Below are positions 9,086 to 29,000 of a DNA stretch of 60,251 bases, one piece after another (position 1 is the stretch's first letter; the number at the start of each line of letters is the position of its first letter). The stretch is from a virus (Duplodnaviria > Caudoviricetes). Below the pieces are notes generated by a model that was given only the letters and a program-made list of their open reading frames with translations, was not told where the DNA came from and made no database searches. A program made the position numbers and the translations under genes. The stretch lies in IMG/VR virus record IMGVR_UViG_3300032257_000013, positions 1-60,251 of that record, one strand, 5' to 3'.

Positions 9086-9864
9086 TAGCTGTGAAAATTC
9101 CAAGGCACGGACTTTTTAAAGACTTAACCTCGAATGTTTTTGGAAGGCTTACCGTCTTGTCTTATGCTGGAAGAATTGGAGTCAATAACCAGTGGAATTG
9201 CAAGTGTACTTGCGGAAATTATTGTATTGTCGCTGGCGGAAATCTAAATAGAGGCAGCACTAAATCATGCGGATGCCTTCATGCTGAAATTGCATCAAAG
9301 GTTCACGCATCCCACAAGATGACAGGAAGTGGTGAATATAGAACATGGATGTCTATGAAAAATAGATGCCTAAACTCAAATGGAATCGGATATATAAATT
9401 ATGGCGGTCGAGGAATAAAAGTTTGCGATAGATGGGTAAATTCATTTGAAAGCTTTTTTTCTGATATGGGGGTAAGACCTAAAGGATCATCCATTGAGCG
9501 AATAAATAATAACGGAAATTATGAGCCATCGAACTGCCGCTGGGCGACAGCAAAAGAACAGGCCAACAACAAAAGATCGAACCATACAATTACGATTAAT
9601 GGCGTAACAAAAACTATGCAAGCGTGGGCTGACGAATGTGGACTGCATTGGTCCGTAATAAAATCTCGCATTAGTTCAGGGCTGTCAGGATATGACTTAA
9701 TCAAGCCATCAGAAAAATACAAGACACTAACCTTCCGTGGAATAACAGATACGTACAAAGGCTGGAGTAATAGAACCGGCATTAAGTCTGAAACTATTTC
9801 GCAGAGAATCAAAAGGAATAAGTGGACAATTGAAAGAACATTAACAGAAGGAGCGACTTTATGA
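9082..9864 (+). CDS. Free-standing HNH homing endonuclease
   Basis: FGRLTV..CKCTCG..KSCGC; YGGRGIKVCDRW; SIERINNNGNYEPSNCRWAT.KEQANN. Confidence 0.85.
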   Translation: MIAVKIPRHGLFKDLTSNVFGRLTVLSYAGRIGVNNQWNCKCTCGNYCIVAGGNLNRGSTKSCGCLHAEIASKVHASHKMTGSGEYRTWMSMKNRCLNSNGIGYINYGGRGIKVCDRWVNSFESFFSDMGVRPKGSSIERINNNGNYEPSNCRWATAKEQANNKRSNHTITINGVTKTMQAWADECGLHWSVIKSRISSGLSGYDLIKPSEKYKTLTFRGITDTYKGWSNRTGIKSETISQRIKRNKWTIERTLTEGATL

Positions 9865-11516
9865 AGATATTAAAATTAACCCAGGGCTCGAACTCTTGGC
9901 ATACCCATAGAGCTGCGCATTTTAATGCGTCCGATGCTCCTGTAATAATGGGATTGTCTAGCTATAAGACACGCGACGAACTGCTACATGAGAAAAAAAC
10001 CGGGATTACTCCAGAGGTAACGCCGGCCACTCAAGCGATATTTGATGATGGTCATAAATTTGAATCAATGGCTCGCGAAATAATAGAAGCTAATCTGGGC
10101 GAAGAATTATATCCAATAACTGGATTTCTTGAGATTGACGGACTTCAACTTTCAGCATCATTTGACGGGATAGACTTTTCAAAAACGTTTTGCTTTGAAC
10201 ACAAAACCCTTAACAGCTCACTTACTAAAGTCGAAACAATAGACGATCTCGACAAGCAATATAAGGTACAGATGCAGCAGCAGATGATGATTTCTGGGTG
10301 CAGTAAATGTCTGTTCGTCGCGAGCAAAGGCGTAAAGGAAGGTATGGTTCAGCTATGGTATGAGTCAGATGACTCTCTTGCCGATGAAATTATTGCTCAT
10401 TGGAAACAATTTGCAATCGATCTTGCCGCATACGAACACCGGCCAGAAGTAATCAAGCCGGACGCAACACCTATTATGGAATTGCCTTCTTTGCTTGTTG
10501 AAGTCCATGGCGGCGTAAAAAACTCGAACCTTACCGTGTATGAATCGAGCGCGCTTAATTTTATCCGAAACATTAACACCGACCTGAAGACCGACGAAGA
10601 CTTTGCCAATGCAGAAGAAACCGTTAAGTTTTGCGGCAAGGCAGAGAAACAGCTCGACCTTGTTAAGCAGCAAGCCATTGCGCAGACCACAGATATTGAA
10701 ACGTTATTCAACACCATGGATCGGCTTCGCGAAGAGCTGCGCACCAAGCGACTGTCACTTGAAAAGCTTGTTAAGGCGCAGAAGGCCACTATTAAATCTG
10801 AAATACTACGCGAAGCAATGGATTCATTTAAGGCGCACATTGCCACCACAAATGAAGGGCTTGGCGGAAATTACCTTCCGGCCTTTGGTGTTGATTTTTC
10901 CGGTGCCATGAAAGGCAAGCGTACCATCACATCAATACGAGGTGCTGCAAACGATGAGCTGGCACGGGTAAAGATTGAGGTCAGCGCAAAAGCAGAAGCA
11001 ATACGCATCAACCTGGCTTCGCTTCGTGATCTTGCGTCAGATTATAAGTTTCTATTCAGTGATGTTATGCAGATCATCACGAAAGCAAATGATGACTTAG
11101 TGTTGCTGATCAACAGCCGGATAAACGAACACAAGAAATCTGAAGAAGATCGACTTGAAGCTGAACGTGAAAAAATCCGTCAGGAAGAGGCAGCCAAGCT
11201 TCAAGCGGAAGCAGATAAAAAGACCGAGAATGGAGCGCAGGCTAATCATGAACAGGTAGAGAAGCAGCAGTACCGCGCGCCTGTTAATCCATCGCGAACG
11301 CTAGGCCATCCCGGGCCAGCAGAACGATCATCAAAAACAGAGCCACGGGAAGATATTACACCAACGTTCTACAAAGAAGACGCAATCAATGCAATCAGAG
11401 AAACAGCCAAACCAATGTCTGAAAAAAAGGCACTGGCCATCCTGGCTGCAATCGAGCGCGGCGACATACCCGGCGTCCAGGCTTATTACTCAACATCAAA
11501 ACAGGAAGCGGCGTAA
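9861..11516 (+). CDS. YqaJ/lambda-exonuclease family protein with coiled-coil C-terminus
   Basis: W...R..FNASDAP..MG.S.YKT, SASFDG, FEHK, Y.VQMQQQM. Confidence 0.9.
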   Translation: MKILKLTQGSNSWHTHRAAHFNASDAPVIMGLSSYKTRDELLHEKKTGITPEVTPATQAIFDDGHKFESMAREIIEANLGEELYPITGFLEIDGLQLSASFDGIDFSKTFCFEHKTLNSSLTKVETIDDLDKQYKVQMQQQMMISGCSKCLFVASKGVKEGMVQLWYESDDSLADEIIAHWKQFAIDLAAYEHRPEVIKPDATPIMELPSLLVEVHGGVKNSNLTVYESSALNFIRNINTDLKTDEDFANAEETVKFCGKAEKQLDLVKQQAIAQTTDIETLFNTMDRLREELRTKRLSLEKLVKAQKATIKSEILREAMDSFKAHIATTNEGLGGNYLPAFGVDFSGAMKGKRTITSIRGAANDELARVKIEVSAKAEAIRINLASLRDLASDYKFLFSDVMQIITKANDDLVLLINSRINEHKKSEEDRLEAEREKIRQEEAAKLQAEADKKTENGAQANHEQVEKQQYRAPVNPSRTLGHPGPAERSSKTEPREDITPTFYKEDAINAIRETAKPMSEKKALAILAAIERGDIPGVQAYYSTSKQEAA

Positions 11517-13921: not shown

Positions 13922-15373
13922 GTGATAGCACATTCAGAACAAATGGATTTCATGTTCGCTAGAGAACTAATCATCGATAACTTCGCTGGCGGTGGCGGCG
14001 CGAGTCATGGCATTGAGCAAGCATTTGGACGCCATGTTGATATCGCCATCAACCATGACCCTGAAGCAATTGCCATGCACATGGCGAACCACCCACATAC
14101 TGAGCATCACTGCGAAAGCGTTTGGGATATTGACCCAATTACAGCAACAAATGGCCGGCCGGTCGGCCTGGCGTGGTTTAGTCCAGACTGCAAGCACTTC
14201 TCGAAGGCCAAGGGAGGCAAGCCAGTAGAGAAGAAGATCCGTGGTCTAGCTTGGATTGTCGTTAAATGGGCAAAGCTGGTTAAACCCAGAGTGATCATGT
14301 TAGAGAACGTCGAGGAATTTCAGGATTGGGGGCCACTGAAAGATGACGACAAACCCTGCCCTGTTCGTAAAGGCCACACGTTCCGTCGCTGGAAGCAACA
14401 GCTGATCGATCTTGGCTACCAGGTAGAACACCGGCAACTGAGAGCATGCGACTATGGTTCTCCGACTATCCGCAAACGCCTATTCCTAATTGCTCGCTGT
14501 GATGGCCGGCCAATTGTTTGGCCGAAACCAACGCATGGCAAAGGGAAAAGGCTTGAGCCATTCAAAACAGCTGCAGACTGCATGGATTGGAAATTGCCAA
14601 CACCATCAATTTTCTTAACCAAAGAGGAAGGCCGAGCAATCAAAGTACGCCGTCCACTGGCTGAAGCTACAATGGCGCGCATTGCCAAAGGCGTTAAGCG
14701 TTATGTTCTAGGCAGCGCCAAACCATTTATTGTTCCTATCGCCAACTACAATGGAAGTGTGATTGCTCATGATATTGATGAGCCGCTACGCACTATCACC
14801 GCCTCTCCAAAGGGTGGCTCATTTGCTTTGGTTTCAGCATTCCTGGCTAAACATTATACCGGAGTCATCGGTCACGAAATCGATAAGCCCATCGGAACGG
14901 TAACAACGGTCGATCATCATTCTCTGGTAGCCAGCCACATGATCAAGCTACGCGGCAGCTGTAAAGACGGCCAGCCCATCGACAAGCCAGCGCCAACCAT
15001 AACGGCTGGAGGCACTCATCTTGGCGAGGTTCGAGCCTTTCTTATTAAATACTATGGAACCGATCAAGATCCGCACCTCAATAAACCTATGCACACGGTT
15101 ACAACTAAAGACAGGTTCGGCCTTGTGACGGTTCACGGCGAAGAATATCAGATCGTTGATATTGGAATGCGAATGCTGGCACCACGTGAGCTTTACCGCG
15201 CACAAGGGTTTCCTGACAACTACATCATTGACGTAGAGCTCAATGGCAGAAAGCTTAGCAAAGCAGCCCAAGTACGGATGTGTGGCAACTCGGTATCGCC
15301 CAACGTAGCAATAGCACTGGTAAAAGCAAATGTTGGCGTAACTACAGTAGCTAAGCAAAAGGGAGCAGCATAA
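13922..15373 (+). CDS. C5-cytosine DNA methyltransferase
   Basis: FAGGGG, SPDCKHFS, ENV, R.RLF, RAQGFP, CGNSV. Confidence 0.93.
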   Translation: MIAHSEQMDFMFARELIIDNFAGGGGASHGIEQAFGRHVDIAINHDPEAIAMHMANHPHTEHHCESVWDIDPITATNGRPVGLAWFSPDCKHFSKAKGGKPVEKKIRGLAWIVVKWAKLVKPRVIMLENVEEFQDWGPLKDDDKPCPVRKGHTFRRWKQQLIDLGYQVEHRQLRACDYGSPTIRKRLFLIARCDGRPIVWPKPTHGKGKRLEPFKTAADCMDWKLPTPSIFLTKEEGRAIKVRRPLAEATMARIAKGVKRYVLGSAKPFIVPIANYNGSVIAHDIDEPLRTITASPKGGSFALVSAFLAKHYTGVIGHEIDKPIGTVTTVDHHSLVASHMIKLRGSCKDGQPIDKPAPTITAGGTHLGEVRAFLIKYYGTDQDPHLNKPMHTVTTKDRFGLVTVHGEEYQIVDIGMRMLAPRELYRAQGFPDNYIIDVELNGRKLSKAAQVRMCGNSVSPNVAIALVKANVGVTTVAKQKGAA

Positions 15374-15376
15374 ACA

Positions 15377-15946
15377 ATGGCATCAAAAACAGAAGCGTAT
15401 CCCCTGTCATGGCCCCAAGATTGGTCGAGAACGAGTAAGCCAACAAAAAGTCAGTTTAAAACTAGCTTAACCGGCGCGCTCAAGAACGTGACAGATTCGC
15501 TTAAGAAGTTTTCTAATGACTCAGGCAAAAAGATTGAGAATCAAATTATCTCGTCGAATGTCACCCTGGGTAATCTTCGGCCAAATGATTCAGGCGTCGC
15601 CGTGTATTTTTCATGGGACGGAATATCCACCTGCATTGCTGTAGATCGATACACAAAGGTTGAGGAAAATCTGCAAGCTATCCATCACTGCATTGAGGCA
15701 GAACGGACAAAGCTTCGTCATGGCGGGCTCAATATTGTGAGGGCTACATTTCGCGGATATGCAGCGCTTCCACCGCCATCCATAAGTGATTGGTGGGATG
15801 TTCTTGAGTGCAGGCGCGACGCATCGCGAACAGCCATCGATCTAAACTATAAGCGGCTAAGAAAAGACTCACACCCTGATCGCGGCGGCAATGATGAATG
15901 GTTCAATAATGTTCAGCAGGCTTACAAAGAATCTAAGCAGTCATGA
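15377..15946 (+). CDS. Phage J-domain protein
   Basis: AYPLSWP N-terminus; WWDVL..HPDRGG C-terminal J domain. Confidence 0.85.
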   Translation: MASKTEAYPLSWPQDWSRTSKPTKSQFKTSLTGALKNVTDSLKKFSNDSGKKIENQIISSNVTLGNLRPNDSGVAVYFSWDGISTCIAVDRYTKVEENLQAIHHCIEAERTKLRHGGLNIVRATFRGYAALPPPSISDWWDVLECRRDASRTAIDLNYKRLRKDSHPDRGGNDEWFNNVQQAYKESKQS

Positions 15947-16155
15947 CAAACAATCTCACAGACGAGCAATGCAACACTATGCCGGCACGTGAATTGTCAG
16001 AAGCAAGCGGCTTGCCTGAAACGACAATACGCTCACGAAAGCAGCGCGGGGATACTGGTAGACGCTTAATACGCCCTTTAGTTTCGCACAGTGCAAGTGT
16101 TGGCAATAGGCGGCATAAGACTGACGGGCATCCTTGGCGTAAATGGGCTGGGTAA
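15943..16155 (+). CDS. Small HTH-like protein (possible endonuclease remnant)
   Basis: ARELSEASGLPETTIRSR resembles the C-terminal DNA-binding repeats of HNH endonucleases. Confidence 0.45.
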   Translation: MTNNLTDEQCNTMPARELSEASGLPETTIRSRKQRGDTGRRLIRPLVSHSASVGNRRHKTDGHPWRKWAG

Positions 16156-16167
16156 CGGGGTAGAGAA

Positions 16168-16650
16168 ATGAAAACAACAACATCACAAGTAACAAAATTA
16201 GTTCTAACTGACTTAGACCGGCTTGATCCTGTTTCTGTAATTACTGAGGATTTTGGATCAGAAAGAGGCAAGATAATTATCGAATGCTACGGTAAAGCAT
16301 GGACAGCCTATTGGGGGTCGATGGGCTGTAACTCAGTAGCTATATTCTTCTACGAAAGTAACGAGCATTACCTCGCAGGAAAGCTCAGCAATATTGATGA
16401 CCATGTATACGATATCGATGCTATACGAGAGTCAGCGGAAGAAAAAGGCATTGAATGCTGGCGTGATGATCCTTGGCATGACCATGAATTTTTACATGCT
16501 ATGTATGGGCCAGACATGACTGAATGGCATAATAGTTTGCCAAAAAAATCAAACTCAGATTATCTATACCTATGTCGAATCATTAAAGCAGTGCAAGAAG
16601 CTTTTAGGAACATCATTGCTGAGCATGACAATAGTAAAGAGGTGGGATGA
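16168..16650 (+). CDS. Conserved-type phage hypothetical protein
   Basis: LDPV.V..ED....GKIII.CYG.AW..YWG.MG..Y.YL.RII.AVQ pattern. Confidence 0.65.
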   Translation: MKTTTSQVTKLVLTDLDRLDPVSVITEDFGSERGKIIIECYGKAWTAYWGSMGCNSVAIFFYESNEHYLAGKLSNIDDHVYDIDAIRESAEEKGIECWRDDPWHDHEFLHAMYGPDMTEWHNSLPKKSNSDYLYLCRIIKAVQEAFRNIIAEHDNSKEVG

Positions 16651-16886
16651 TGCTTGATAACGACGGATACCATAACTATTTACGCCAAAGGATCAGCCTT
16701 GAAAATAAATTAACTGATATTGGCAGCACGCAAGAAAGCATAGAAATAGAATCGCAGATGATGTTTGTTGAGGAACGACTATTGGCTCGCATTAAACAAT
16801 CTCATTCACACGCAAGGCAGGAACTAAACGCATTGAAAATGGTGCTAATAGAGTCATCAAAAGATGATGCAATAAGTGAGAAATGA
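16647..16886 (+). CDS. Hypothetical coiled-coil protein
   Basis: ATGA-coupled ORF. Confidence 0.55.
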   Translation: MMLDNDGYHNYLRQRISLENKLTDIGSTQESIEIESQMMFVEERLLARIKQSHSHARQELNALKMVLIESSKDDAISEK

Positions 16887-17077
16887 CTTATATATTAGCT
16901 AAAGACAGAAAGCCGGAGACGGGTGTTGACGTCTATGTGGTTACAGAGTCAGGGGTCAAGGGTGTAGCAAAGTATTGGGATTTAACTGGCGCTTGGCTAA
17001 CACAGGATAACAACCTTAAAACTTCAGATATTGTGAAGAAGTGGCAATATGCCGAGGCAACCGCAGATGAAGCTTAG
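16883..17077 (+). CDS. Small hypothetical protein (DUF551-like)
   Basis: KDRKPE...V.V....V..WQ pattern; coupled. Confidence 0.5.
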   Translation: MTYILAKDRKPETGVDVYVVTESGVKGVAKYWDLTGAWLTQDNNLKTSDIVKKWQYAEATADEA

Positions 17078-17264
17078 TTTTAAAGAAGATAAATACGCCT
17101 TAAAAATAGCAAGGTTAGAGAAGTGGCATAGATACTTCGCTTTAATACCTATTCGTGTTGCGCGTGAAGACTATCGATGGCTTGAATATATAGAACGAAA
17201 AGGGGCATGTATTGGAATCGTTAATAGGCGGTGGTCTTGGAAATATAGGGAAATTAGTGATTGA
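17067..17264 (+). CDS. Hypothetical protein
   Basis: WHRYFALIP.R...RWLE.I.RK pattern; GAGG RBS. Confidence 0.5.
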   Translation: MKLSFKEDKYALKIARLEKWHRYFALIPIRVAREDYRWLEYIERKGACIGIVNRRWSWKYREISD

Positions 17265-17267
17265 GCT

Positions 17268-17489
17268 ATGAGTTATCCAGCATTTAAAGAAATGGATCTG
17301 TGGACAAGGGTGCGCGCCACAAAGGATATAACAACTAAAAACCGAACAATGAAAGCTGGAGATACAGGGGTAATTATTGAGCGGTACGCTTATGTCGTTG
17401 GCGTTAGACCAGACGGAAAAAAGCTTACTGTAGAAACAGGCTGTGAAACAGCTTTGGAAATTATCAGCACTCCCAAAAACAATGAATGA
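17268..17489 (+). CDS. Hypothetical SH3-like small protein
   Basis: RVRATKDI..KAGDTGVIIE. Confidence 0.5.
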   Translation: MSYPAFKEMDLWTRVRATKDITTKNRTMKAGDTGVIIERYAYVVGVRPDGKKLTVETGCETALEIISTPKNNE

Positions 17490-17524
17490 AATAGCTAAAC
17501 AAGCACTGCAACAGGTTAAGGCCA

Positions 17525-18007
17525 ATGATTAAAGGCGCAACATTTTCTCATTGCGAAAAGTACCGGTACAGCCTTTGGCGGTTTTGGGATAAAAACCCCT
17601 ACGCCTTATTTTTGATGTTAAACCCAAGCACAGCAGATGAAGAAAATAACGATCCGACTGTAGAGCGGTGTCAAAGATATGCTGCCCAATGGGGCTATGG
17701 TGGCTTGGTCGTATGTAATATTTTTGCCTATAGAGCAACCAAACCTAAAGATATGAAATCACAGGATGATCCCGTTGGGCCAGATAACGATGATTATATT
17801 ACCAAGCAAGCCGCTGATGCAGGAATAGTTGTATGTGCCTGGGGTAATCATGGTAGCCACGAAAATAGATCAAAAAATATCGTTGCCACGCTAAGAGAAA
17901 GTAATATTGAGCTGCACTGCCTGAAAATTACAAAGCAAGGCGAGCCTGGCCATCCCTTGTATTTACGTAAAGATATTGAGCCCCAGCGTTGGAACGGTGA
18001 GCGATGA
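17525..18007 (+). CDS. DUF1643 family protein
   Basis: YRY.L.R.W, MLNPSTAD..NDPT, N.FA.RAT.P, AWG, HPLY. Confidence 0.88.
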   Translation: MIKGATFSHCEKYRYSLWRFWDKNPYALFLMLNPSTADEENNDPTVERCQRYAAQWGYGGLVVCNIFAYRATKPKDMKSQDDPVGPDNDDYITKQAADAGIVVCAWGNHGSHENRSKNIVATLRESNIELHCLKITKQGEPGHPLYLRKDIEPQRWNGER

Positions 18008-18321
18008 AAATCTTACATTTAACATTAAAAAAACAATGGTTTGATTTGATAGCCAGCGGCTCAAAAACTATTGAATATCGAGAATTTAAGAACTATTGGG
18101 TATCAAGATTGATGACTTCTGACGGCAGATTACGTAATGACTTTGATGAAGTGCATTTTCGCAACGGTTACTCAAAGGGTTCGCCATTTATGAGGGTGGA
18201 ATTTTCAGCAATTCGCGTGGTGCAAACACGTCACCATCCAGCTATGAACGGGGAACCACTAACCGATAGCCATTACTTCGCTATTTATCTTGGGTCAGTG
18301 CTGAATGAGAAAGCGGCGTAG
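18004..18321 (+). CDS. ASCH domain protein
   Basis: LHLTLKKQWFD.I.SG.KT.EYR. Confidence 0.85.
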   Translation: MKILHLTLKKQWFDLIASGSKTIEYREFKNYWVSRLMTSDGRLRNDFDEVHFRNGYSKGSPFMRVEFSAIRVVQTRHHPAMNGEPLTDSHYFAIYLGSVLNEKAA

Positions 18322-18323
18322 AA

Positions 18324-18542
18324 ATGCTCCCTGAGATCGTACCATTTCAAGACCTTCAAGAGCTGTCCGATTATCGTAAGCCTATGTATGTCAGAAAGTG
18401 GCTGGATAATCTCAAAGTGCCTTATGCTGTATCGAGGAATGGACTACCCCGCGTTCACAGATTGGCATTAGCCAACGCATTAGGGGTTAAGGCTGTGGAA
18501 CCGGCCAGTAATGAGCCAGATTTTGATAAATGGGAAGGTTGA
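18324..18542 (+). CDS. Excisionase-like protein (DUF4224-type)
   Basis: ELSDYRKP...KWL...VPY....G.PRV, EPDF tail; immediately upstream of int. Confidence 0.75.
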   Translation: MLPEIVPFQDLQELSDYRKPMYVRKWLDNLKVPYAVSRNGLPRVHRLALANALGVKAVEPASNEPDFDKWEG

Positions 18543-18550
18543 TATAGATT

Positions 18551-19546
18551 ATGTCCACTATGGGCCGCCAAAAAACAGTCAATCATAACCTTCCGCCGCG
18601 CATGTTTCCGCGAAATGGAAAGAAACAGACCACCTACTATTACCGGCCATCCTTGGGTGATCGAACTCCAATTAATCTAGGACACAACTACGAAAAAGCG
18701 CTAAAGAAGTGGGCGGAGATCGAAGGTGACACCCCGGCGCCAGATAATCCGCAGACATTTAACGAAGTGTCTCAGTGCTATTTTAGGGACATTGTGCCAA
18801 ATAAATCGCCAGCAACACAGAAAGATAACTTCAGAGAACTCAAGAAGTTAAATGAGATATTTAAATATATTTTACTGGACAATATCAAGCCCAAACACGT
18901 CCGAATGTATATGACCAAGCGAAAAGCCAAGGTCAGGGCTAACCGCGAAAAAGCCTTACTCTCCCATATTATTAATTACGCCCGCGAGCATGGCTACTCA
19001 GACAAGCCAAATCCATGCGCAGGCATCCGTGGAAACAAGGAAAAAGGTCGCGATAAGTACGTGACAGACGCAGAATTCAAGAGCCTGTATGAGTGTGCAC
19101 ACCCTGCCCTACAAGACGTTCTTGACCTGATGCTATTCACCGGCCAGCGTCCGGCAGACTGTTTAAAAATGACCCGAGCAGATATCCGAGAAGGTGCATT
19201 ATGGGTAAAACAGAACAAAACCGGCCATAAACTAGGCATCAACATTACTGGTGAGTTTGCCAAAGCTATTGATCGCATACTGTCCAGGGAAAGGTCAGTA
19301 CCAAGCATGTACCTGGTGGCAGATGATAACGGTCAACCGCTATCTTATTGGACGCTGACCAGTCGATTCAAGAAGGCTCGCAAGGGTTCTGGCGTCGATT
19401 TCCAAATGAGAGATATTCGGGCAAAAAGCGCAACCGACACAGGAAACTTGGAAACAGCCAAGCAACGTCTTGGACATTCTACCGTTGTCATGACTGAGCA
19501 TTATGTGAAAAACCGTAAAGGTGAGCGCGTGGGGCCGCTGAAATGA
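18551..19546 (+). CDS. int: Tyrosine integrase
   Basis: TGQR, QNKT, RDIRAK, LGHS, T.HY catalytic motifs. Confidence 0.94.
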   Translation: MSTMGRQKTVNHNLPPRMFPRNGKKQTTYYYRPSLGDRTPINLGHNYEKALKKWAEIEGDTPAPDNPQTFNEVSQCYFRDIVPNKSPATQKDNFRELKKLNEIFKYILLDNIKPKHVRMYMTKRKAKVRANREKALLSHIINYAREHGYSDKPNPCAGIRGNKEKGRDKYVTDAEFKSLYECAHPALQDVLDLMLFTGQRPADCLKMTRADIREGALWVKQNKTGHKLGINITGEFAKAIDRILSRERSVPSMYLVADDNGQPLSYWTLTSRFKKARKGSGVDFQMRDIRAKSATDTGNLETAKQRLGHSTVVMTEHYVKNRKGERVGPLK

Positions 19547-19549
19547 GCA

Positions 19550-19636
19550 TGGTGCCTAGGGCCGGAATCGAACCGGCACGACCTTTGGGTCGGCAGATTT
19601 TAAGTCTGCTGCGTCTACCAGTTCCGCCACCCAGGC
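19550..19636 (-). tRNA. tRNA-Leu (anticodon UAA), full length with encoded CCA
   Basis: GCCTGGG..GCAGA-CTTAAAA-TCTGC, long variable arm CGACC-CAAA-GGTCG, GGTTCGATTCC, CCTAGGC-A-CCA. Confidence 0.95.
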
Positions 19637-19640
19637 ATAA

Positions 19641-19847
19641 TTTTGGTAACAACTTTATATTTTTGGTAACAAATTTAACCGTAACTATTTGTTTTTAAAG
19701 CCTTTATTTTCATTAAAAAGGGATTTTAAGTCCTGTCGTATTTTGATAAATATCATACTGTTACGTCATTTTTGTTACCAAAAGACTGAAATGCGAAACG
19801 CTTTTATCTCAATAAGTTATGAAGGGGCTAGTGAATTTTGGCTACAT
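19641..19847. mobile_element. attP: arm-type repeats around a tRNA-Leu anticodon-arm core
   Basis: TTTTGGTAACAA at 19641 and 19661, inverted at 19772-19783, variant at 19836; core AGGGATTTTAAGTCC 19719-19733; IHF-like TATCATACTGTTA 19751-19763. Confidence 0.7.
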
Positions 19848-19949
19848 TTTTTGGAGAGTAAAATACGAGTCACAAACTACCAATTCAGCATCAATTAGCA
19901 ACAGCCCTCGCTATTGACCCCAAGCATCAGGTCGGAGTAGCATCAAGCA

Positions 19950-20090
19950 ATGGAGATAACCCTTACAGAGATTGTCGCCCTCATGCTAATGTGGGTCTTG
20001 CTTTATGGTGCCATCCGATTATTTGAAAAGTTTATGGCCGGCGACTTCGATCATTTCTTTGGATACCACGATAAAAAAAAGAAACGCTAA
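19950..20090 (+). CDS. 46-aa single-pass membrane peptide (not in ORF track)
   Basis: MEITLTEIVALMLMWVLLYGAIRLFEKFMAGDFDHFFGYHDKKKKR; TTGACC-N18-TAGCAT promoter ends 6 nt before ATG. Confidence 0.55.
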   Translation: MEITLTEIVALMLMWVLLYGAIRLFEKFMAGDFDHFFGYHDKKKKR

Positions 20091-23000
20091 GGCATCACCA
20101 CCTTTTCCCTGTACAGCTTATTAAACTTCGTCATTACCAGATTAATCCTGTCTTCAATAGGCTGAAGCTTCAGCTTTCTCTCTTGATCGGTTAGCTTTTT
20201 GGTATTTTTAATTTGGTTTCGCCTCTTGCGCAGTTTTCTGATCTGGCTTTGGTATTGTTTCGCCCTTCCAATTAATCGATATTGAGCGTTGAATTCATCC
20301 TTAACAGACCGCCTTTTTTCTGGATCTTCACGATAGAATTTAATCTGATTCTCAACAAGGCGGATATCTTCCATATTTTTATAATATGAAGACACCATCC
20401 TTCTTGGGTTTTGAGTACCATACAGCTTGCGAACTAGCGGAACAGTGTACGTTTCAATTTCTTCTTTCTGCAATATCTTAATCGGCGTCGCCACAGTATC
20501 GCCCAGGAACCGGCCAGCACCACCTGTTACCGTGTCATACATCAGGTCGAAAAATTCCGGCGAGATATCAACCGCACCTGGACGCACAGCATCACCACCT
20601 GTTAAAGAGTTAAGCTGCTCAGTAATATAGCGTGACGGCTCACGTACGCTACCCCAATACTTTTGAGAGTTCGGCTTATCTACGCCGAATGGATTATCCG
20701 CAGGACGCAGAGGTCTTCCGGCAAAGTCTTTATTCGTTCCCCATTGAATGAAAGGATCGGTGATTGTTGGTGAAACCATTTGCAAGATTGATTCTTCACC
20801 GCCTATAGGATTAAATGCACCCATTACTGAGCTCAACACACGCATAGCGCCATCGGTAGATTTAAACCCTTTCTTTGACATTGCTTCGCCAAGTACCTGC
20901 CCGGTAACGTGCATTACGTTATAGCCCCACGGCAGTGGAATTTTGAAGTAATCGCCACCAGGACGCATGACAATTAGATTATGCGCTTTAGTGTAATCGG
21001 GTATCTTGTCATAACGTGGCTCGCCATCGTCATCATCGCCGCCCAGCGAACGATTAAGCATGTCGAGCATCACCGCAAAGGCAACAGTCCCGAGCATCAT
21101 CTTGCGAACCTTTGAGCTTTTACGTGCAGCTATAATCAAGCGGACAGAGCCTTGAATCGATGCGTTATAAAACAAGTACAGGGCATTAAGAACCTGACCA
21201 GAATCACCTTTCCGGTTAAAGTTTACTGTCAGCTCTTTGGCGATTCTTGCCGCCTTAGCTTCGCTTATCCCTGCTTTACGAGCATGCACAAAGGTCGATA
21301 AGCGCACCGCATTTTCAACGGCAGTATTTTCATCCTCAATAAACTTCATAAGATTATTGAGGCCACGCTTGATCGTCATTATCTTGCCCGGCTGCATTTC
21401 TCGCAGCAGTTTTTTCAGCTTCGTTTCGCGCTGATCAATATCCCGGTAATGATCCATCCAGCCCGTCTTGCCGCCGGCATCCCTAAATTCACGAAAGTGT
21501 TTAGCCCACGCCTGATCCAGTTTGCCTTTTTGAGCGGAACGAATACCGCGCCATGCTTTACCGACATCCTTGAATATGGCCTTTTTCATATTGGCCGCTT
21601 CAGTGTCATTCAGGTTATAGCCTGCCGTCTGCATGTCTCGCGCAAAGTTAGATATAACAAACTCAGGGTTTGCACTGGTATTCACTAAAGCCAGCCATCG
21701 ATTAACCTTCAATAGCGCATTAACAATTACCCCTGCATCCTGCGCGCCAAGGTTTTTCATTGAGCGCGCAATACGCATCGCATCAACGCTTTTCTCATTA
21801 AAGGTAATGTGATGTTCTTCACCATCAATGCGAACTGACAGCACGTTATCAGCAAGGATATAGCTTGTGTCGGGTCGGTACACGACTAAACCATCTTTAT
21901 CAAAGGTTGCTTTGTAGTCAGGCTTATCAATGGTATACAGCTTCTCATCAGGGTTCGCCTTTACGAAATCCAGCAAGGCTTTGCCTACTTTTGCTTTTTC
22001 CGACCTGATAACGGTGGCTTCGTATTGAGCCACTACCTGGGCAAGAACGTTCGCAACATCAAGATTACTACCTGTCCGACGCTTCGATTTTCCGCGAGTA
22101 TCAAAGCCTTTGCCTTTGCGCGGCATGCCTTTACCCTTGCCTTCACGCTGAAGCGGAATGTAATACTTATAAGCATTCTCCCACGCATCAATTGTTTCAT
22201 TGGCTTCAAGACCTGATTCGCGCAACAGATCACGCCGAGCCTTGGTGATGATATCAACCCGGCTAGCGATATCCTCCAACGCATCCAACTGTCCACGTTC
22301 TTTGAAATCCTTAATAACCTGAACCGCTTCCTCATTAGACATTCCAGAAAGCGCTTCATTATCTTCACGATCAGGGTTAATTTTTTTCAACTGCGCATTA
22401 GCTTCTGGCGCATGCCGGGCATGCAATACTTCACCGATTTCTTCCAGCGACAAATCGGCTTTGTGAATAGCTTCAAGTAGTGGCTGGATATGATCTTCGT
22501 GGAAATCCTCGATCTTTGCCCCGGTCATTCCATGATAGCGAAGCTCTGCCAGGTAAGCGTCTTGATCCTCGAGCAGCTCGTCAACGCCTTGTTTCTTTTC
22601 CGCCTGCCTCTGAACCTTCAGCAATGGCGCGAACTTATCCTGCGCTTTAAATACCAGCGTGTCCCATATTTGTTGGGCGCGAGATTCTTCAGGTAGTGCG
22701 TTGGTGGCGTCTTCTTCAGACTTCCGGCTAAACATAGAAACTGATTCTGATTCAGACTCACTAGCACCCGTCGCCATAAAACGAGTCGCGCCACGCTTGC
22801 TGGCTTTACCACTGCCGGCTTCACGCGCCTTCTTCGCCATATACGCAATATCATTCGCGCCGTACTTTGACGCCAGCTTAGTCAGGCCATGCGAGCGCAG
22901 CCATTCCTTGATGGCCCCGATCAGCTCACGAATCCGCTTCTGGATCGATGGCTTTAATTCGCCTTGATGCGCAATCACTTCCTCAACCAGTATATTTGCT

Positions 23001-26000
23001 CGCTGTTCCTTACTATAGCGTTGCGTTCCGTCTGGAAAAGTCGATGACAAGCCTTCGCGATATGGCTTGAGATCAATACCCAAGTCCTTCGCAATCCGGT
23101 TCAACCCTTTACTGCTACCCATCGCCATGTACAGCTTTCTCATAGCGGCATTAACGCCCTTATTGCCGTATATGACATCCATGCCCCGGTGCGTCAATTC
23201 GTGTAGCAGGACGGTTTCGGCATGCTCTTCGCTTACAATCGCGTCACGAACAAGGTAGACTTTCCCCTTATGGAATACGCCCTCTACATCGCCATCCCCT
23301 GCGTCTTGCTTTTTGGCGTCATCTTGTATCGCCGCCGGAAGATCCCTGAAAGTGTCGACGACCGTTACACCGTCCGCACCTTTGAGGAAGGGGGCGACCC
23401 GATCAATGACCGCATCGAGTTCCACTGCCGCAAGCGGCGTTGATTTTTTCTTGGCGCGGGAAAGCTTAGCCTCTCCAATATCTGCAGACTTCTCAATCAC
23501 CACCATTCGCGCATTCGTGCCAGTATTGACAGGCAAGCTTGTGTCTTGAAATGATCCCTCTGGGAGTTTTTCTTCAGTTCCGCCTACGGATTCCAGCCAT
23601 TCACGAAATGCGGCTGCAGTTTTATCCTTGCCGAAAAAGACACCCTCACCCATTATCGCAACAATTCGACCGCCGGGCTTAAGTTGATCGTAAGCATGCT
23701 GCACATGCTCGGCATCACGACGATCCGAAAAAGGCGGATTCATTATGATTCGATCATAATCACCATCGGTAACATCCATAAAATCATTGCCGACAATATT
23801 AAGCCCCTTGGCCTCAAGAAGCTCACGACGGCTACTGGAAAATTCCACGACATCAGGCTCGACGCCCGCCTCGCGGATTCTCTCTGCGATATGCCCCATA
23901 CCTGCAGATGGCTCAAGCACTGTCATGCCAGGCTCAATCTGAGCAATCTCGACCATCTCATCGGCAACGCTTTCAGGCGTCGGGAAAAAATCAAGACCAT
24001 CCTTAGCCCGGCCAATCATTTTCCGTTCCATTTCTTTAATCTTGTCAGGCTCAGCCGGCGCTTCACGTAAAGCGACAAATTCACGCAGGGCAGAACGAAA
24101 CTCAGCAGGTGTCTCCAGCCCCATGCTATCAAGACGCTTGCGCTTTTCGTAAACGCTCTCGAACTGCCAAGGAACGGTTAGATTATTTTTGCGACGAGCC
24201 TTACCAATAAGCTTCTCAACAAACTCTGGATTCAGCGTAATACGCTTATCATCATCACCATCCCAAATTCCACGTTTCTGCGCTTCAGACGGACTGAGAA
24301 TAATAAGATTTTCGCCACGCTTAAATGGCAACACGATAGCCTGCCCACGATAGCCAGACCGACGGATGGCCTCAGTAGCAGCTGCCTTGCTCTTGAAGGC
24401 CGCTCTATCTCCAGACTTGGTTGAAAACGTTGATACCTTGTTCAAATTCTCTTTGGCAAACTTCAGATATTCCTTTGTTACATCATCCGCAACCTTAAGG
24501 ATTTTCTGGCCAATCAGCTTCATGCCTTCTGTTTCTTGCGCCTGACGACCCAACCTAGCCAAGTCCGAACGGAATGCTGTGTATGTTGGCCACGTTGCGA
24601 AATCAGCCGTTTCTGCATCCGGCGCTTCGCCTTTGCGTTTTACCTGATCCCGGTATTCCGGAAATTTATTTCTGATCTGCTCATCCTTTGCCAAATTCAC
24701 AAAGGTAGACATCATTTCAACTTGTGTTTTTTGTCTGACTCGATCAAGAAACTTAGCTTTCCCGCTTTCAATAGCTGCAGCAATGTTGCGCATAGTTTCC
24801 GACATCGCCTTATCGTAACTAGCGGACGCTTCTGCTCTGGCCGCCATACCGGCACGACGTGAAGTATTAACTTTGCGCTCTTGCCCCAATGACTCGTCGG
24901 CCCGACCTTCAAGACGATCAGCCATTTCATTCAAGCGCTCAACAGCGGATTGCGATCGATCGTCCTCAAACGCATCACGACGCACCTTAGCTTGTTCCTG
25001 CACTGCATCAGTATCGCCAGCACTCACATACTTCTGAAACGCCTCGGCGGACTCTCGCGTCTTAAACTGAAAGCCAGGAACAGCGCCAGTGCCTCGGAAA
25101 CGCGAATACCAACCACCCATTTTTTTGGCAGCAGATAACCATTCTTTATAGATATCACGGTCAACTCGTTCAGCAGTTTGCACCACAAACAAATCATAAT
25201 CATCGCGAGTATGTTTTGTTTCGATAATCTCGGTATCAGTAGTCGCGCCGGCTGAACCCACCCTTGTCCGATCTTCTGCTTTTTTTGCACCCCTTTCTGA
25301 TCTGGTTTTTTCTGCCAACAACGTATCAAATGTAGCCCTCTGCTCGGGCGATAAAGTCATCCGGGCATCCTGAAAGGTTGCTCCTTCTGCCATTTTTATC
25401 CTGACATTGCGAATGTAATCTTCTAATTTCTCAGGGTTTTCAGCTCCTAATTTTGCAGCTTCAAATTCCTTATTTCGCTCATCGCGAGCCTTTATAATTT
25501 CGTCAAAATGCTCAGTAATACTTTCGTCGGTGGCCTTCTCGACACTCTGACGAATAGAGTTAAGCCGTGACTCTTCATAGTTTCCACCGCCAATCATAAA
25601 GCTGACGGAATCACTAAGATTAAACTCGTCAGTAATGCGATCGAATGCGGCCCCAATCACCCTATCCTTTTTCTCGCTTTTGTAGCGATACTCAAGACCA
25701 GAGAAACGTTTGAATATTCCAGGCTTAGTCATGCTGGATATTTCGGAAAGAATACTGTCCTTATTTGCAACAACGGACTCAAAAGCGGATTTAAACTCAT
25801 CAGCTTTAACCTTCCCGTCATATAGGCGCGACTTGAAATCATCAAAGCTTGATAGCGAGTCAACAGCCACCTTTTCCCGTTTGCTAACCGTAACAAGTGA
25901 ATCTGTCTTTCCATCTCCAACAACAGACTCACGATACATGCTCTCACTGATCGTAAAATCCTTGTTCCGGCCTTTGTTTTCTACAAACCCGAACCGTTTA

Positions 26001-29000
26001 TAAAACTTGACTAACCTGCTCCGAGAAGTAACACCCTGGAAGTCGTCGCGCACGGCTGGCGTCAAGATGACCCGAAATCCCTTCTCGTCGGCATACTCAA
26101 CGATACGCTCCATCGCTTGCGTTCCAACACCTTGTTTCCTTTTATCTTTCTCAACAATGATAGTCTGCAACTTCAGGTCGCCTTTTGACGAAAACATGTG
26201 CAATGACTTCAGGCCCAGCTCGGCCTCCAGATTGGTCGCAAATTCATCAACATCGCTATTTACATCTTCATTAACCTTGGGAGTTTCCCGCTTACTAACC
26301 GGAACCGTCACATCTACATCAGGGCGTGCTGCCTTGGGCTTTTCTTCGCGTTTGCTGACCGGTGTGAGGATATCGGGTTTCTTTTTACTGATAGGCTGCT
26401 GTACGCCTTCCATCTTGATTTTTGTTAGCCCACCATCTTTACCTGAGAATTCAACGGCATTAAAAGTGAACACCTGCCCTTCTAGGTCAGTTTTTATTTT
26501 GGCGTACTTTTTCCCGGCACCCTTTTTCACGTAACCGAGCGTGATATGCGGCTTATAATCGGGGAATGTATCTGTATGCTCCAGTGAGTCGGCAATTTTC
26601 TTATTTAGTCGGGTAAGATCTGGGCTGCTGACACGTAACACGACAACATCATTTTCATCATTCTCAAATATTTCAACGCCATCAACAGTCGCGGTGATTT
26701 TCCCCTCACCCTGTAGCGCCTTGGAAAGATCGGTTGAGTCTGACGTATGAAGCCCATATTTGACGGTGATGTGTGGACGCTCTTCTAAACCTTCAGCCGG
26801 ATCTATGTCATTAACATCAATTAACCGCTTGGCGGTTTGGCGCACACGCATCATGTCGTCGCCATCGAGCGCAACCTGAGAAGAGCTATAATCATATTCA
26901 TGGGCGGTAGACGTAGAAACAGCCTCAGAAGTAGTTTCATTATCTGAAAAGTCAATTTGACCGGAATGCTCACGATAAGCGGTATAACCATCGTCGTATG
27001 CGCCCCACTGACTTTCTGGTAGATCTTTGACGTTTTCTTTCTTGTCAGCTTTCGCATCATTCCATCCCGAATAAAATCCCGGCGCATCCACAAGAGAGCG
27101 ATGCTCGCCACGATAATCCTTGATTGCTTTACGTGCCGCTTTATCGATTTTCTGTTTTTTCTGTCCCCCAGAATCAGAAACGGCCTCATCAGAGGCCGCT
27201 TGTTGTGGTGTTTTGGTGGTGGTGTCGGGCGGGGATTTATCAATTTCCTGAGCATTGATAGATGTTGATTGATTTGGCTCAGTTTTGAGTATGTTATTTT
27301 CCGTTTCAGGCGACACAACGGGTTTTGTGTCTGACTGCTTAGACACAACATCTTCAATATCAACCTGATTGTTGGCTTGCTCGCTGAAAAGATCGCCAGC
27401 GATACCCTGATCGGCTGGAACGTCTTTATTGGGGCTGCGCTTTTTATCCTGCGCTACTGCGGCGTCTTTGACTTCTTGGGCTGCTTGGGTGTTGTCTCCA
27501 AGGAGGTCTTTGTCTTCTGTTTGTAACCGCTCTTCTCGTCTTCGATCAGTCGGTCGTGGATCGCCTGCATCCGCTTGCTCTTCAGTTTGCGTGGCTTGAG
27601 GTGCTGCATTGCGTGGCTCCTTCGTGAATTTAATTAATTCTTGTGCAATAGCGTAATCAGATAGACTATCGGTGCGCTCGACCAGGGCATCGTAACCAGC
27701 CGGGTCAAGTTCAAACGCTTCTCTTGCCAAGTCTGCAAGGCTGCGTGTTTCAGCGTCCCATTCAGAATTATACGCCGATTCATCGCTACGGCTACCGGGC
27801 TCGTAATTGATCTCTGGCGAGTCTGCAATTAACTTAGCAATTTCGCCACGCGGTAATGGTTTCGCAATCTTCTGTCTAACTGCTGCCTGAGTATCACGCG
27901 CATAGTCGATATTGTCCGGGCTTGTCCGGTCGGCTTCAACCTGATCGAGCATGTATTCAATAACGCGGATTTCACGCTTACCAAGCAATTTACCTTCAAG
28001 CGCTTTATTAACGGCGCGCTGAGTGTCTTTAACCGAATAACCCGTATCAACCGCCGAACCGTCAACAGCCGGGGCCGTCATATTTTGGAACCATTCAGGG
28101 TTTATGCTGCTCGTCCTGATTGGGTCGTCAACCTGAGTAGCAGGTTTATCTTGATTCATTTCTGAGAACTGGCCGCCAACTAAGGCAATGCCGCCGCCCT
28201 TAGTCAGATCATCCGACATTTGCTGCAAAGGGGCGCGGTAGTCTTCTCTGGCTAAACGTGGGTCTTTCAAATTCGCCGGTAATCGTGCGGCGCGTGAATT
28301 ATCACCCTGCATTTTATCTGCAACCGGGCTTAATGCGTCCGCCATAGCGTTATTAGCCGGCGCTTCCTGATTCAATGCTTGCTGCGCAGTCTCATCAAGT
28401 GGGCGCTCTGAAACAACGTCGAACGGCTCAACAGTTTCAGTCCCCGCATCAACCTTGCCAGGCAAACGATTTTCATCACGCTGCAGCTTATTCAGATAAC
28501 GCGGCTGATCTTGCTGCATCATCATGTCTTCACGCACCTGGGCATCATCTACCGGGGCCGCCTCTCTTTCAGCAAAAGCCGCTTCACGTTCCTGTGCGAT
28601 TTTCTGTTCTTGCGCTTTGGCTTCTCGTGTCGCTAAGATTCGGTCGCGAAGTTTGGCTGTTTTTGGCGAAAGCTGATCAGCTATATCGCGAATGGGAGAT
28701 GTTTGCGGACTTTGATCAGCTGGCTCAAAGGGGTTGCCATCAACCGGGGTTAGCTGAGGTGATGCGTCTGTCTTTTTGCGCGTCAGTACATTAGCCGCAA
28801 TATCGCCCGGCAATCCAAGCGCTTCAAGCAAACCTTCAACAACGACATCAGCCTGGCTGGCTTCTTCCCCAACAACAGCGCTGCGGGCAATCTCGCCTGT
28901 TGCGCCACCTATCATCTGAATAAAGGTCTGCGCTGGAATATTAGTAAACTGGTTTGGGCCAATTTTCCACGGAACCACAGCGGCAGTAAGTGCATCAACA

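What the first reader, a model, noticed from the sequence alone, without database searches (positions are those of the whole stretch)
19550..19847. attP keeps only the tRNA-Leu anticodon arm and the phage supplies a complete replacement tRNA
Seen: between the arm-type repeats (TTTTGGTAACAA) lies GGACTTAAAATCCCT on the minus strand (19719-19733), an anticodon stem-loop of tRNA-Leu(UAA) that differs from the phage tRNA's own stem (GCAGACTTAAAATCTGC) and has no tRNA 3' half behind it. About 83 nt downstream on the same strand is a full tRNA-Leu(UAA). Known: most tRNA-targeting phages rebuild the host gene; tRNA-dependent lysogeny has been described in mycobacteriophages. Inference: integration destroys the host tRNA-Leu(UAA), and the phage copy, placed under the host promoter and not itself an integration target, rescues it. 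I am not aware of this being shown in proteobacterial phages.
Basis: partly seen in the sequence, partly recalled or inferred. Interest (0 to 1): 0.75.

Follow-up and report, generated by a model that had tools for sequence, protein, structure and literature searches.

The report
Phage breaks host tRNA, brings spare
This complete 60-kb temperate phage seems to insert into the anticodon loop of the host leucine tRNA(UAA) gene without repairing it and carries its own whole tRNA-Leu(UAA) beside the site, a strategy called tRNA-dependent lysogeny that was first shown in 2024 in mycobacterial phages.

Summary
The window is a complete Bcep22-like phage genome. It holds a tyrosine integrase (18551-19546), a sound tRNA-Leu(UAA) 3 nt after the integrase stop (19550-19636, minus strand), three exact 12-nt arm repeats, and a 15-nt tRNA-Leu(UAA) anticodon arm (19719-19733) with no tRNA 3' half behind it.

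Six complete attP sites of the same integrase family share one layout: P1 near -116, P2 near -53, core, tRNA 3' half, then tandem P' sites. The window's repeats fit that layout around the 15-mer (-116, -52, +59, +79). They do not fit around the full tRNA (-242, -178, -67, -47).

15 of 16 relatives with a tRNA-Leu(UAA) core carry the tRNA 3' half; the window does not. In relatives the P' sites start 0-2 nt after the integrase stop. Here a 94-nt stretch holding the tRNA lies between them.

The 15-mer matches tRNA-Leu(UAA) genes in 222 of 401 sampled genomes.

No lysogen or junction was found, so destruction and rescue of the host gene are inferred, not shown. I class it as a new member of a known kind. 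An alphaproteobacterial case is already in print, and earlier notes of this scan describe similar elements on other DNA.

The parts
18324..18542 (+). 72-aa ORF just upstream of the integrase; possible excisionase or directionality factor (weak call)
   Evidence: Pfam DUF4224, E 2.9e-4, 21.1 bits, just under the cut-off of 22. The role is suggested by position only.
18551..19546 (+). Tyrosine integrase, 331 aa, transcribed towards attP
   Evidence: PF00589, E 2.3e-15. Homologues are 44-61% identical. The residues that are invariant across 22 family members are present in it.
19550..19636 (-). Complete phage tRNA-Leu(UAA), 87 nt, with encoded CCA; anticodon arm GCAGA-CTTAAAA-TCTGC
   Evidence: ARAGORN; Rfam tRNA model 56.8 bits. 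It starts 3 nt after the integrase stop and ends 4 nt before the first P' arm site.
19641..19672 (+). Two tandem arm-type sites (P' arm): 19641-19652 and 19661-19672, 20 nt start to start
   Evidence: Exact 12-mers. They lie at +79 and +59 from the core in tRNA sense. Relatives have tandem P' sites 19 nt apart.
19673..19718 (-). 46-nt AT-rich spacer where relatives carry the tRNA 3' half
   Evidence: No T-arm and no tRNA hit.
19719..19733 (-). attP core: GGA-CTTAAAA-TCCCT, the anticodon loop plus part of the stem of tRNA-Leu(UAA). The crossover is presumed to fall within the 7-nt loop.
   Evidence: Unique in the window. Identical to the arm of tRNA-Leu(taa) genes. Sits at the family's core position relative to the arm sites.
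19752..19781 (-). Sigma-70-like promoter match (TTGGTA, 18 nt, TATGAT) overlapping P2 and pointing towards the core and the tRNA
   Evidence: It matches 9 of 12 positions, and the region's count is not above chance (2 found, 1.6 expected). Weak.
19772..19783 (-). Arm-type site P2, inverted relative to the P' sites
   Evidence: Exact 12-mer. Offset -52 from the core; the family range is -51 to -56.
19836..19847 (+). Probable arm-type site P1 (TTTTGGCTACAT; 9 of 12 bases match)
   Evidence: Offset -116 from the core; the family range is -113 to -119.

Best explanation
The stretch 19637-19847 is the phage attachment site of a lambda-type tyrosine integrase. The crossover core is the 15-nt copy of a tRNA-Leu(UAA) anticodon arm at 19719-19733.

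The integrase would recombine this core with the anticodon loop of the host's tRNA-Leu(UAA) gene, which is usually single-copy. Related phages carry the tRNA from the loop to the CCA end and so rebuild the gene. This attP has 46 nt of unrelated AT-rich DNA there, so the host gene would be left as two halves.

The phage's own complete tRNA-Leu(UAA) lies between the P' arm sites and the integrase stop, on the same strand as the core. After integration it would sit 82 nt downstream of the truncated host gene. There it could be read through from the host's tRNA promoter, often as the new last gene of a Gly-Cys-Leu tRNA cluster, and replace the lost function. This is tRNA-dependent lysogeny.

Shown here: the anatomy, the family-wide attP layout, and the match of the core to real tRNA-Leu(UAA) genes. 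Inferred: the actual host site, loss of host tRNA function, rescue by the phage tRNA, and how that tRNA is expressed.
For: 1. **The DNA is a free phage genome.** The window is a complete virus record with terminal repeats, so the tRNA is phage DNA and attP must be present.
2. **The arm sites fit the 15-mer, not the tRNA.** Six complete attP sites of the family (L109, L125, L126, L128, L134, L241), and in part L092 and L122, share one layout: P1 at -113 to -119, P2 at -51 to -56 in inverted orientation, core, tRNA 3' half, and tandem P' sites at +77 to +129 spaced 19 nt. The window's sites lie at -116, -52, +59 and +79 from the 15-mer, and at -242, -178, -67 and -47 from the full tRNA's loop.
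3. **Relatives cross over in this loop.** In relatives the identity with tRNA-Leu(UAA) begins 2-3 nt before the anticodon loop.
4. **Only the window lacks the 3' half.** 15 of 16 relatives with such a core and no full tRNA beside it carry a T-arm and CCA end 3' of the core. The 16th (L140) carries the 5' half. The window has neither.
5. **The tRNA looks inserted.** In relatives the first P' site starts 0-2 nt after the integrase stop. In the window 3 nt, the 87-nt tRNA and 4 nt lie between them.
6. **The layout is unique in the sample.** Of 62 loci with a tRNA within 400 nt after the integrase stop, only the window has the tRNA directly after the conserved integrase end. L184, L199 and L172 also show 3-4 nt gaps, but only because their reading frames run on about 25 codons, so the tRNA starts 76-80 nt after the homology ends. 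Of 139 tRNAs in 241 loci, only the window's has a second copy of its anticodon 11-mer just upstream of its 5' end.
7. **The 15-mer is a real tRNA arm.** It occurs in 222 of 401 sampled genomes of the class that holds G001, the genome of locus L052 (218 of 397 without four unpublished genomes). There were 230 matches in all, so it is nearly always single; by my count the reversed control pattern gave 3. In 27 of 30 fetched loci it lies inside a full tRNA-Leu(taa). In 21 of those 27 the gene is the last of a Gly-Cys-Leu or Cys-Leu tRNA cluster.
8. **The phage tRNA has a different arm.** Its 17-nt arm occurs in only 8 of the same 401 genomes.
9. **The strategy is proven elsewhere.** It was shown experimentally in actinobacteriophages, including the pair Omega (44-bp core, tRNA rebuilt) and Gaia (8-bp core, own tRNA-Leu-CAA downstream of int) (PMC10865867, sections 5, 6, 10 and 11 read).
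Against: - No lysogen, attB, attL or attR of this phage or a close relative was found. The closest integrases in the genome, viral and metagenome collections are 40-64% identical. Exact-pattern scans found nothing. The only run that holds the phage gave no junction contigs.
- The P' sites lie 18 nt or more closer to the core (+59) than in any relative (+77 at the least).
- The P1-like site has 3 mismatches in 12.
- The only promoter-like match lies on the P side and would be separated from the tRNA by integration. No terminator-like site was found.
- The phage tRNA shares 11 nt with the core, so it might itself be a substrate.
- TTA makes up 184 of 1,059 leucine codons in a crude ORF set, so a purely translational role for the tRNA is not excluded.
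- The host is unknown, and the 15-mer is too widespread to name it.
Confidence: 0.7

Rival explanations
1. Canonical integration. The crossover lies inside the full tRNA (19550-19636), which is a copy of the host gene, so the gene is rebuilt. On this reading the 15-mer is a relic or a chance match.
For: In 61 other loci the integrase is followed by a tRNA on the opposite strand. Some bacteria have a tRNA-Leu(UAA) with the phage's anticodon arm; the best is 92% identical to the phage tRNA (L279).
Against: The arm sites are at -242, -178, -67 and -47 from the tRNA loop, unlike any relative. No arm site can fit in the 3 nt between the integrase stop and the tRNA, where relatives have their tandem P' sites. 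No 12-mer-like site lies in the integrase 3' end. The 15-mer sits at the family's core position to within 1-4 nt. The phage contig runs through the tRNA unbranched in the only run that holds it, which is weak evidence.
Confidence: 0.07
2. The 15-mer is the core, but the tRNA has another purpose, such as supplying a UUA decoder for phage translation or countering a tRNA-cleaving host defence. On this reading its position beside attP is incidental, and the host tolerates the loss or has a second gene.
For: TTA is 17% of leucine codons. The same anticodon arm is found in tRNA-Leu(UAA) genes of at least 118 viral contigs, many of them in tRNA arrays. Both roles are discussed for phage tRNAs in PMC10865867 (section 11).
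Against: The tRNA has the same anticodon as the target. It is the only tRNA in the phage. It is wedged exactly between the integrase stop and the P' sites, on the strand that follows the truncated host gene. The 15-mer is nearly always single-copy in the sampled genomes. The two roles do not exclude each other.
Confidence: 0.13
3. The attP is a decaying remnant. The phage no longer integrates, living lytically or as an episome, and loss of the tRNA 3' half is part of that decay.
For: No lysogens were found in any collection. The P'-to-core spacing is unusually short, and P1 is degenerate.
Against: Three arm sites are identical at 12 of 12 bases. The core is intact over 15 nt. The integrase is full length with the family's invariant residues. 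The P1 and P2 spacing is kept to within a few nt.
Confidence: 0.1

Closest known systems
tRNA-dependent lysogeny of actinobacteriophages (Fionnbharth/K4, Cluster L, Cain/K6, Gordonia CQ2/DL, Gaia/X): Guerrero-Bustamante and Hatfull, mBio 2024, PMC10865867
   Same: A tyrosine integrase with arm-type sites flanking a short core (8-17 bp there, up to 15 bp here). The core lies in a host tRNA gene that is not rebuilt. [quoted passage not shown] Close integrase relatives use the same tRNA but rebuild it. The Omega/Gaia pair is the nearest parallel: a tRNA-Leu target, with Gaia's own tRNA downstream of int.
   Different: Here nothing is shown experimentally and attB is unknown. The phage is a Bcep22-like podophage whose integrase relatives sit in Betaproteobacteria-type genomes. 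The target is tRNA-Leu(UAA). The tRNA lies inside the attP-int module, 82 nt from the core and in the orientation of the host gene, whereas Fionnbharth's tRNA lies elsewhere and has its own demonstrated promoter (section 6). The paper's supplementary figures of arm-type sites could not be seen.
[quoted passage not shown]
   Same: A proteobacterial host. The integration falls in the central part of a tRNA-Leu gene and inactivates it. The prophage carries a tRNA-Leu of the same anticodon that is only about 80% identical to the host gene.
   Different: That case involves tRNA-Leu(UAG), an alphaproteobacterial host, and junctions seen in two sequenced lysogens. Here only the free phage form is known, and the case rests on attP layout. 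I read passages only; the supplementary tables were not seen.
Canonical tRNA-rebuilding attP sites of the same integrase family (for example L125, L128, L109, L126, L134, L241)
   Same: Homologous integrases (40-46% identity). The same order and spacing of P1, P2, core and tandem P' sites. The same target loop, CTTAAAA.
   Different: Those sites carry the tRNA from the loop to the CCA end between the core and the P' sites and have no full tRNA. The window has a 46-nt non-tRNA spacer there and a full tRNA inserted between the P' sites and the integrase stop.
Phage lambda attP (P1, P2, core, P'1-3; integrase transcribed towards the P' arm). This comparison is recalled, not tested here.
   Same: Arm-type sites on both sides of a core, in inverted orientation, with tandem sites on the integrase side.
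   Different: Lambda's attB is not in a tRNA gene, and lambda encodes no tRNA (stated in PMC10865867, section 11).

Membership tests
tRNA-dependent lysogeny (as defined in PMC10865867, abstract) | The phage encodes a tyrosine-family integrase. | tested here: met
   PF00589, E 2.3e-15. The family's invariant residues are present.
tRNA-dependent lysogeny | attB overlaps a host tRNA gene. | tested here: inconclusive
   No attB or lysogen was found. Indirect support: the core equals the anticodon arm of tRNA-Leu(taa) genes in 222 of 401 genomes, and in 27 of 30 fetched loci it lies inside the full gene. Relatives use this loop.
tRNA-dependent lysogeny | [quoted passage not shown] | tested here: met
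   Tested on the phage side only. tRNA likeness is limited to 15 nt. There is no T-arm or acceptor 3' strand behind it, whereas 15 of 16 relatives have them.
tRNA-dependent lysogeny | [quoted passage not shown] | tested here: met
   tRNA-Leu with anticodon UAA at 19550-19636, 56.8 bits.
tRNA-dependent lysogeny | The host tRNA is essential or non-redundant, and the phage tRNA is required for viable lysogens. | not testable with these tools
   The only support is that the 15-mer is nearly always single (230 matches in 222 genomes). That tRNA-Leu(UAA) is the only decoder of UUA is textbook knowledge, not tested here.
Lambda-type attP with arm-type and core-type sites, in this integrase family's version | P1, P2 (inverted), core and tandem P' sites at conserved offsets. 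| tested here: met
   Offsets are -116, -52, 0, +59 and +79, against family ranges of -113 to -119, -51 to -56, 0, and +77 to +129. The P' distance is shorter than in any relative.
Canonical tRNA-rebuilding attP | attP carries the tRNA from the crossover point to the 3' end. | tested here: not met

The most novel reading that the evidence does not exclude
The phage has turned a tRNA-repairing attP into a tRNA-replacing one by two changes. A foreign tRNA-Leu(UAA) cassette was inserted between the integrase stop and the P' arm sites. The tRNA 3' half was then lost from attP.

The new gene has no promoter of its own in the lysogen. It is read as the new last gene of the host's Gly-Cys-Leu tRNA operon. 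Its anticodon stem differs from that of the target gene at three base pairs, which keeps the integrase from cutting the phage's own tRNA.

Because only 15 nt need to match, and these are shared by more than half of the sampled genomes of the class, the change frees the phage from tracking any one host's tRNA sequence and widens the range of hosts it can lysogenise.
Probability: 0.35. Interest if true: 0.65.

Novelty: new member of a known kind. Interest (0 to 1): 0.45.

Why it matters
tRNA-dependent lysogeny has been proven only in phages of Actinobacteria. Its authors asked how common it is elsewhere.

This phage is a clean candidate from a very different lineage: a Bcep22-like podophage whose integrase family sits in Betaproteobacteria-type genomes. 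It comes with many relatives that still repair the same tRNA. That makes the step from 'repair' to 'replace' readable. A tRNA cassette was inserted at a defined point, and the 3' half was lost.

It also gives a sequence-only test for such cases when no lysogen is known: place the arm-type sites against the family's attP layout to see which tRNA-like element is the core.

In practice, a short core conserved across many genomes, together with int and the tRNA, could serve as a broad-host integration cassette, as was proposed for mycobacteria.

Tried and rejected
- **Direct search for lysogens or junctions, all empty.**
  - The integrase alone against genome contigs and viral contigs found no relative.
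  - A 33-nt core-plus-P' pattern in metagenome contigs gave 0 matches.
  - The tandem arm pattern in viral contigs gave 0 matches.
  - The C-terminal 499 aa of the neighbouring giant gene in viral contigs gave 0 relatives.
- **Sequencing runs.** Only one run holds the phage, and it is probably its source. Laid on 18500-20500, it gave the phage contig plus short tRNA pieces from other organisms over 19550-19643. There were no joints, and no contig diverged at the core. Contigs cannot show absence.
- **Profile scans** gave 240 loci, none above 64% identity (the 64% hit is a partial match), so the closest homologues (59-61% identical, P0002-P0005) could not be seen in their DNA context.
- **Three loci with a tRNA 3-4 nt after the integrase stop** (L184, L199, L172) looked like further examples. 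They are ordinary junctions whose integrase frames simply run on.
- **A third GGACTTAAAATCC in genome G001** (L244) looked like a second core-only site. It lies inside a 1,276-aa ORF and is a chance match.
- **Viral contigs holding the phage tRNA's anticodon arm.** None of the 80 fetched encodes a relative of this integrase.
- **Promoter and terminator scans** gave nothing above chance.
- **This scan's own notes** on this genome and on the integrase sequence were empty.
- **One paper search** was too loosely set and added nothing.

Full report
**What the DNA is.** The window is a whole virus record of 60,251 bases with direct terminal repeats, rated 100% complete. Its large terminase is 40-42% identical to those of Ralstonia phages YL2 to YL4, Burkholderia phages Bcep22, BcepIL02 and BcepMigl, Serratia phage Parlo and Pseudomonas phage 8P. 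A 3,216-codon ORF lies next to the site. This is therefore a free, Bcep22-like phage genome. The tRNA in it is phage DNA, and its attP must be present. An independent assembly of the only public run that holds it, probably its source, gives the same arrangement in one 60,154-nt contig.

**Check of the observation.**
- ARAGORN finds one tRNA, tRNA-Leu(taa), at 19550-19636 on the minus strand. Rfam scores it 56.8 bits against a threshold of 29.
- The integrase (PF00589, E 2.3e-15) ends at 19546, 3 nt from the tRNA's CCA end.
- TTTTGGTAACAA occurs exactly three times in the window, all within 143 bp: twice in tandem (19641, 19661) and once inverted (19772-19783).
- A weaker fourth copy lies at 19836-19847.
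- GGACTTAAAATCCCT lies at 19719-19733 on the minus strand and is unique in the window.
- It shares 11 nt with the phage tRNA's own arm, has nothing tRNA-like behind it, and lies 82 nt upstream of the tRNA on the same strand.

**Relatives of the integrase.** The closest proteins are 59-61% identical and come from short unnamed contigs. Named homologues at 50-53% identity come from Zoogloea, Denitromonas, Ideonella, Rubrivivax, Georgfuchsia, Gallionella and similar bacteria.
- Profile scans gave 80 loci each from genome contigs, IMG/VR contigs and metagenome contigs.
- Of 239 loci in which the integrase stop could be found, 62 have a tRNA within 400 nt downstream. It is always on the opposite strand, with its 3' end facing the integrase. 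The tRNAs are Phe, Met, Cys, Lys, Asn, Leu(CAA), Leu(UAA), Thr and Ser.
- This is the ordinary prophage junction of a tRNA-targeting family, and several members use tRNA-Leu(UAA).

**The family's attP layout.** I lined up the loci with a tRNA-Leu(UAA) loop near the integrase on the A of ACTTAAAAT, in tRNA sense.
- Six complete attP sites (L109, L125, L126, L128, L134, L241) show the same plan: one arm site at -113 to -119, an inverted one at -51 to -56, the core, the tRNA from the loop to the CCA end, then two tandem arm sites 19 nt apart between +77 and +129. L092 and L122 show most of it.
- The arm sequence differs between phages, but the plan does not.
- The module occurs in either orientation relative to the integrase gene.
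- In the orientation the window has, the first tandem site starts 0-2 nt after the integrase stop.
- Identity with the tRNA starts 2-3 nt before the loop, which places the crossover in the anticodon loop.

**Where the window's core is.**
- Measured from the 15-mer, the window's sites lie at -116 (the weak copy), -52 (inverted), +59 and +79 (tandem). Measured from the loop of the full tRNA, they lie at -242, -178, -67 and -47. Only the first set fits the family plan.
- No arm site can lie between the integrase and the tRNA, because the gap is 3 nt. None lies in the integrase 3' end.
- The core of attP is therefore the 15-mer, not the tRNA.
- Two differences from relatives remain. The P' sites are at least 18 nt nearer to the core. 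The stretch between them (46 nt, AT-rich) has no T-arm or acceptor strand, whereas 15 of 16 relatives with a core and no adjacent full tRNA have both. The exception, L140, carries the tRNA 5' half instead.
- Between the integrase stop and the first P' site the window has 3 nt, the 87-nt tRNA and 4 nt. This looks like an inserted cassette.
- Among 62 loci with a nearby tRNA, and among 139 tRNAs in 241 loci, this layout is unique.

**The likely target.**
- The 15-mer occurs in 222 of 401 genomes sampled from the class that holds G001, the genome of locus L052. There were 230 matches in all, against 3 (by my count) for the reversed control pattern.
- Four of these genomes are flagged unpublished (G041, G143, G298, G310), and all four have a match. 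Without them the tally is 218 of 397.
- In 27 of 30 fetched loci the 15-mer is the anticodon arm (AGGGA-CTTAAAA-TCCCT) of a complete tRNA-Leu(taa). The other three are a tRNA cut by a contig end and two partial copies.
- In 17 of the 27 the gene is the last of a Gly(GCC)-Cys(GCA)-Leu(UAA) cluster, and in 4 more the last of a Cys-Leu cluster.
- The phage tRNA's own 17-nt arm occurs in 8 of the same 401 genomes, and in tRNA-Leu genes of at least 118 viral contigs. The best bacterial tRNA is 92% identical to it (L279).
- The 15-mer therefore matches common host genes, while the phage tRNA is of a rarer type that differs at three stem pairs.

**How it most likely works.** The integrase joins the core to the host anticodon loop. 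The junction that holds the host 5' half continues into the AT-rich spacer and the two P' sites, and then, 82 nt on, into the phage tRNA and the end of the integrase gene. The other junction holds the P arm and the orphan host 3' half. No host tRNA is rebuilt. The phage tRNA, in the same orientation, can be read through from the host's tRNA promoter and processed out.

The steps after the anatomy are inferred. No promoter or terminator stands out. The one promoter-like match (19781-19752, minus strand) would stay with the other junction after integration. In the free phage it could drive the tRNA.

**Comparison with what is known.**
- This is the pattern described as tRNA-dependent lysogeny (PMC10865867; abstract and sections 5, 6, 10 and 11 read). 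It comprises a tyrosine integrase, a common core of 8-17 bp in a tRNA gene, no rebuilding, and a cognate phage tRNA that lysogens need to survive.
- Omega, which rebuilds tRNA-Leu-CAA through a 44-bp core, and Gaia, which has an 8-bp core and its own tRNA-Leu-CAA downstream of int, form the same contrast as the relatives and the window here.
- The authors name Lactobacillus prophage Lj965 as a possible case outside Actinobacteria (section 11).
- A proteobacterial case is already in print. [quoted passage not shown]
- Searches for the term and for related words showed no experimental case in Proteobacteria among the papers listed. I read only listings for the rest.
- Earlier notes of this scan, which are unchecked, describe the same trick in other phages and non-phage elements on other DNA, one of them with the tRNA 6 nt after the integrase stop.

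**Verdict.** I put 0.7 on tRNA-dependent lysogeny at tRNA-Leu(UAA). The rest is split between a canonical site in the full tRNA (0.07), a tRNA kept for other reasons (0.13) and a decaying attP (0.10). It is a new member of a known kind, of moderate interest. Its value lies in the clear before-and-after series within one integrase family and in extending the phenomenon to a new phage lineage.

Noticed in passing
L140:3469-3750 (IMG/VR contig): A related integrase (43% identical) is followed by tandem arm sites and then the 5' half of a tRNA-Leu(UAA), ending at the anticodon loop, instead of the 3' half. No T-arm or CCA follows. This suggests an attP that integrates in the opposite orientation and supplies the 5' part of the gene.
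   Followed up: partly
L229:3454-5400 (metagenome contig): Beyond the core of a canonical tRNA-Leu(UAA) att site lie two GTTACCAAAA-type repeats, like the window's arm motif, and a second, unrelated tyrosine-recombinase-like ORF of about 520 aa reading away from the site. This may be a tandem array of two elements at one tRNA.
   Followed up: partly
L024, L026, L028, L032, L037, L055, L058, L063, L068, L087, L189, L211: At tRNA-Phe(GAA) junctions, a second copy of the anticodon 11-mer lies about 0.8-5 kb away on the far side of the integrase. These look like the two ends of small integrase islands whose repeats reach the anticodon loop.
   Followed up: no
G001 contigs C188 and C233 (L243/L259, L052/L245): This genome (Nitrosomonas supralitoralis by the title of L052) has an intact Gly-Cys-Leu(UAA) cluster on one contig. 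On another contig a related integrase is followed by P1, P2, the core and only the tRNA 3' half, which is the far junction of an integrated element.
   Followed up: partly
window 20087-29737 (-): A single 3,216-codon ORF starts right beside attP, as in Bcep22-like phages. Its C-terminal 499 aa found no relative in IMG/VR by the pattern scan.
   Followed up: no
window 13922-18321 (+): Upstream of the integrase lie a C-5 cytosine DNA methylase (PF00145), a DUF1643 protein (E 6.8e-51) and a small ASCH-domain protein. A YqaJ-type recombinase domain lies at 9861-11516.
   Followed up: no
L074:4954-5150 (Pseudomonas sp. contig): An integrase with tandem arm sites is followed by only the acceptor and T-arm end of a tRNA-Leu, which then diverges into AT-rich DNA holding a loop-like ACTTAAAAT. 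It looks like a decayed or rearranged junction.
   Followed up: no
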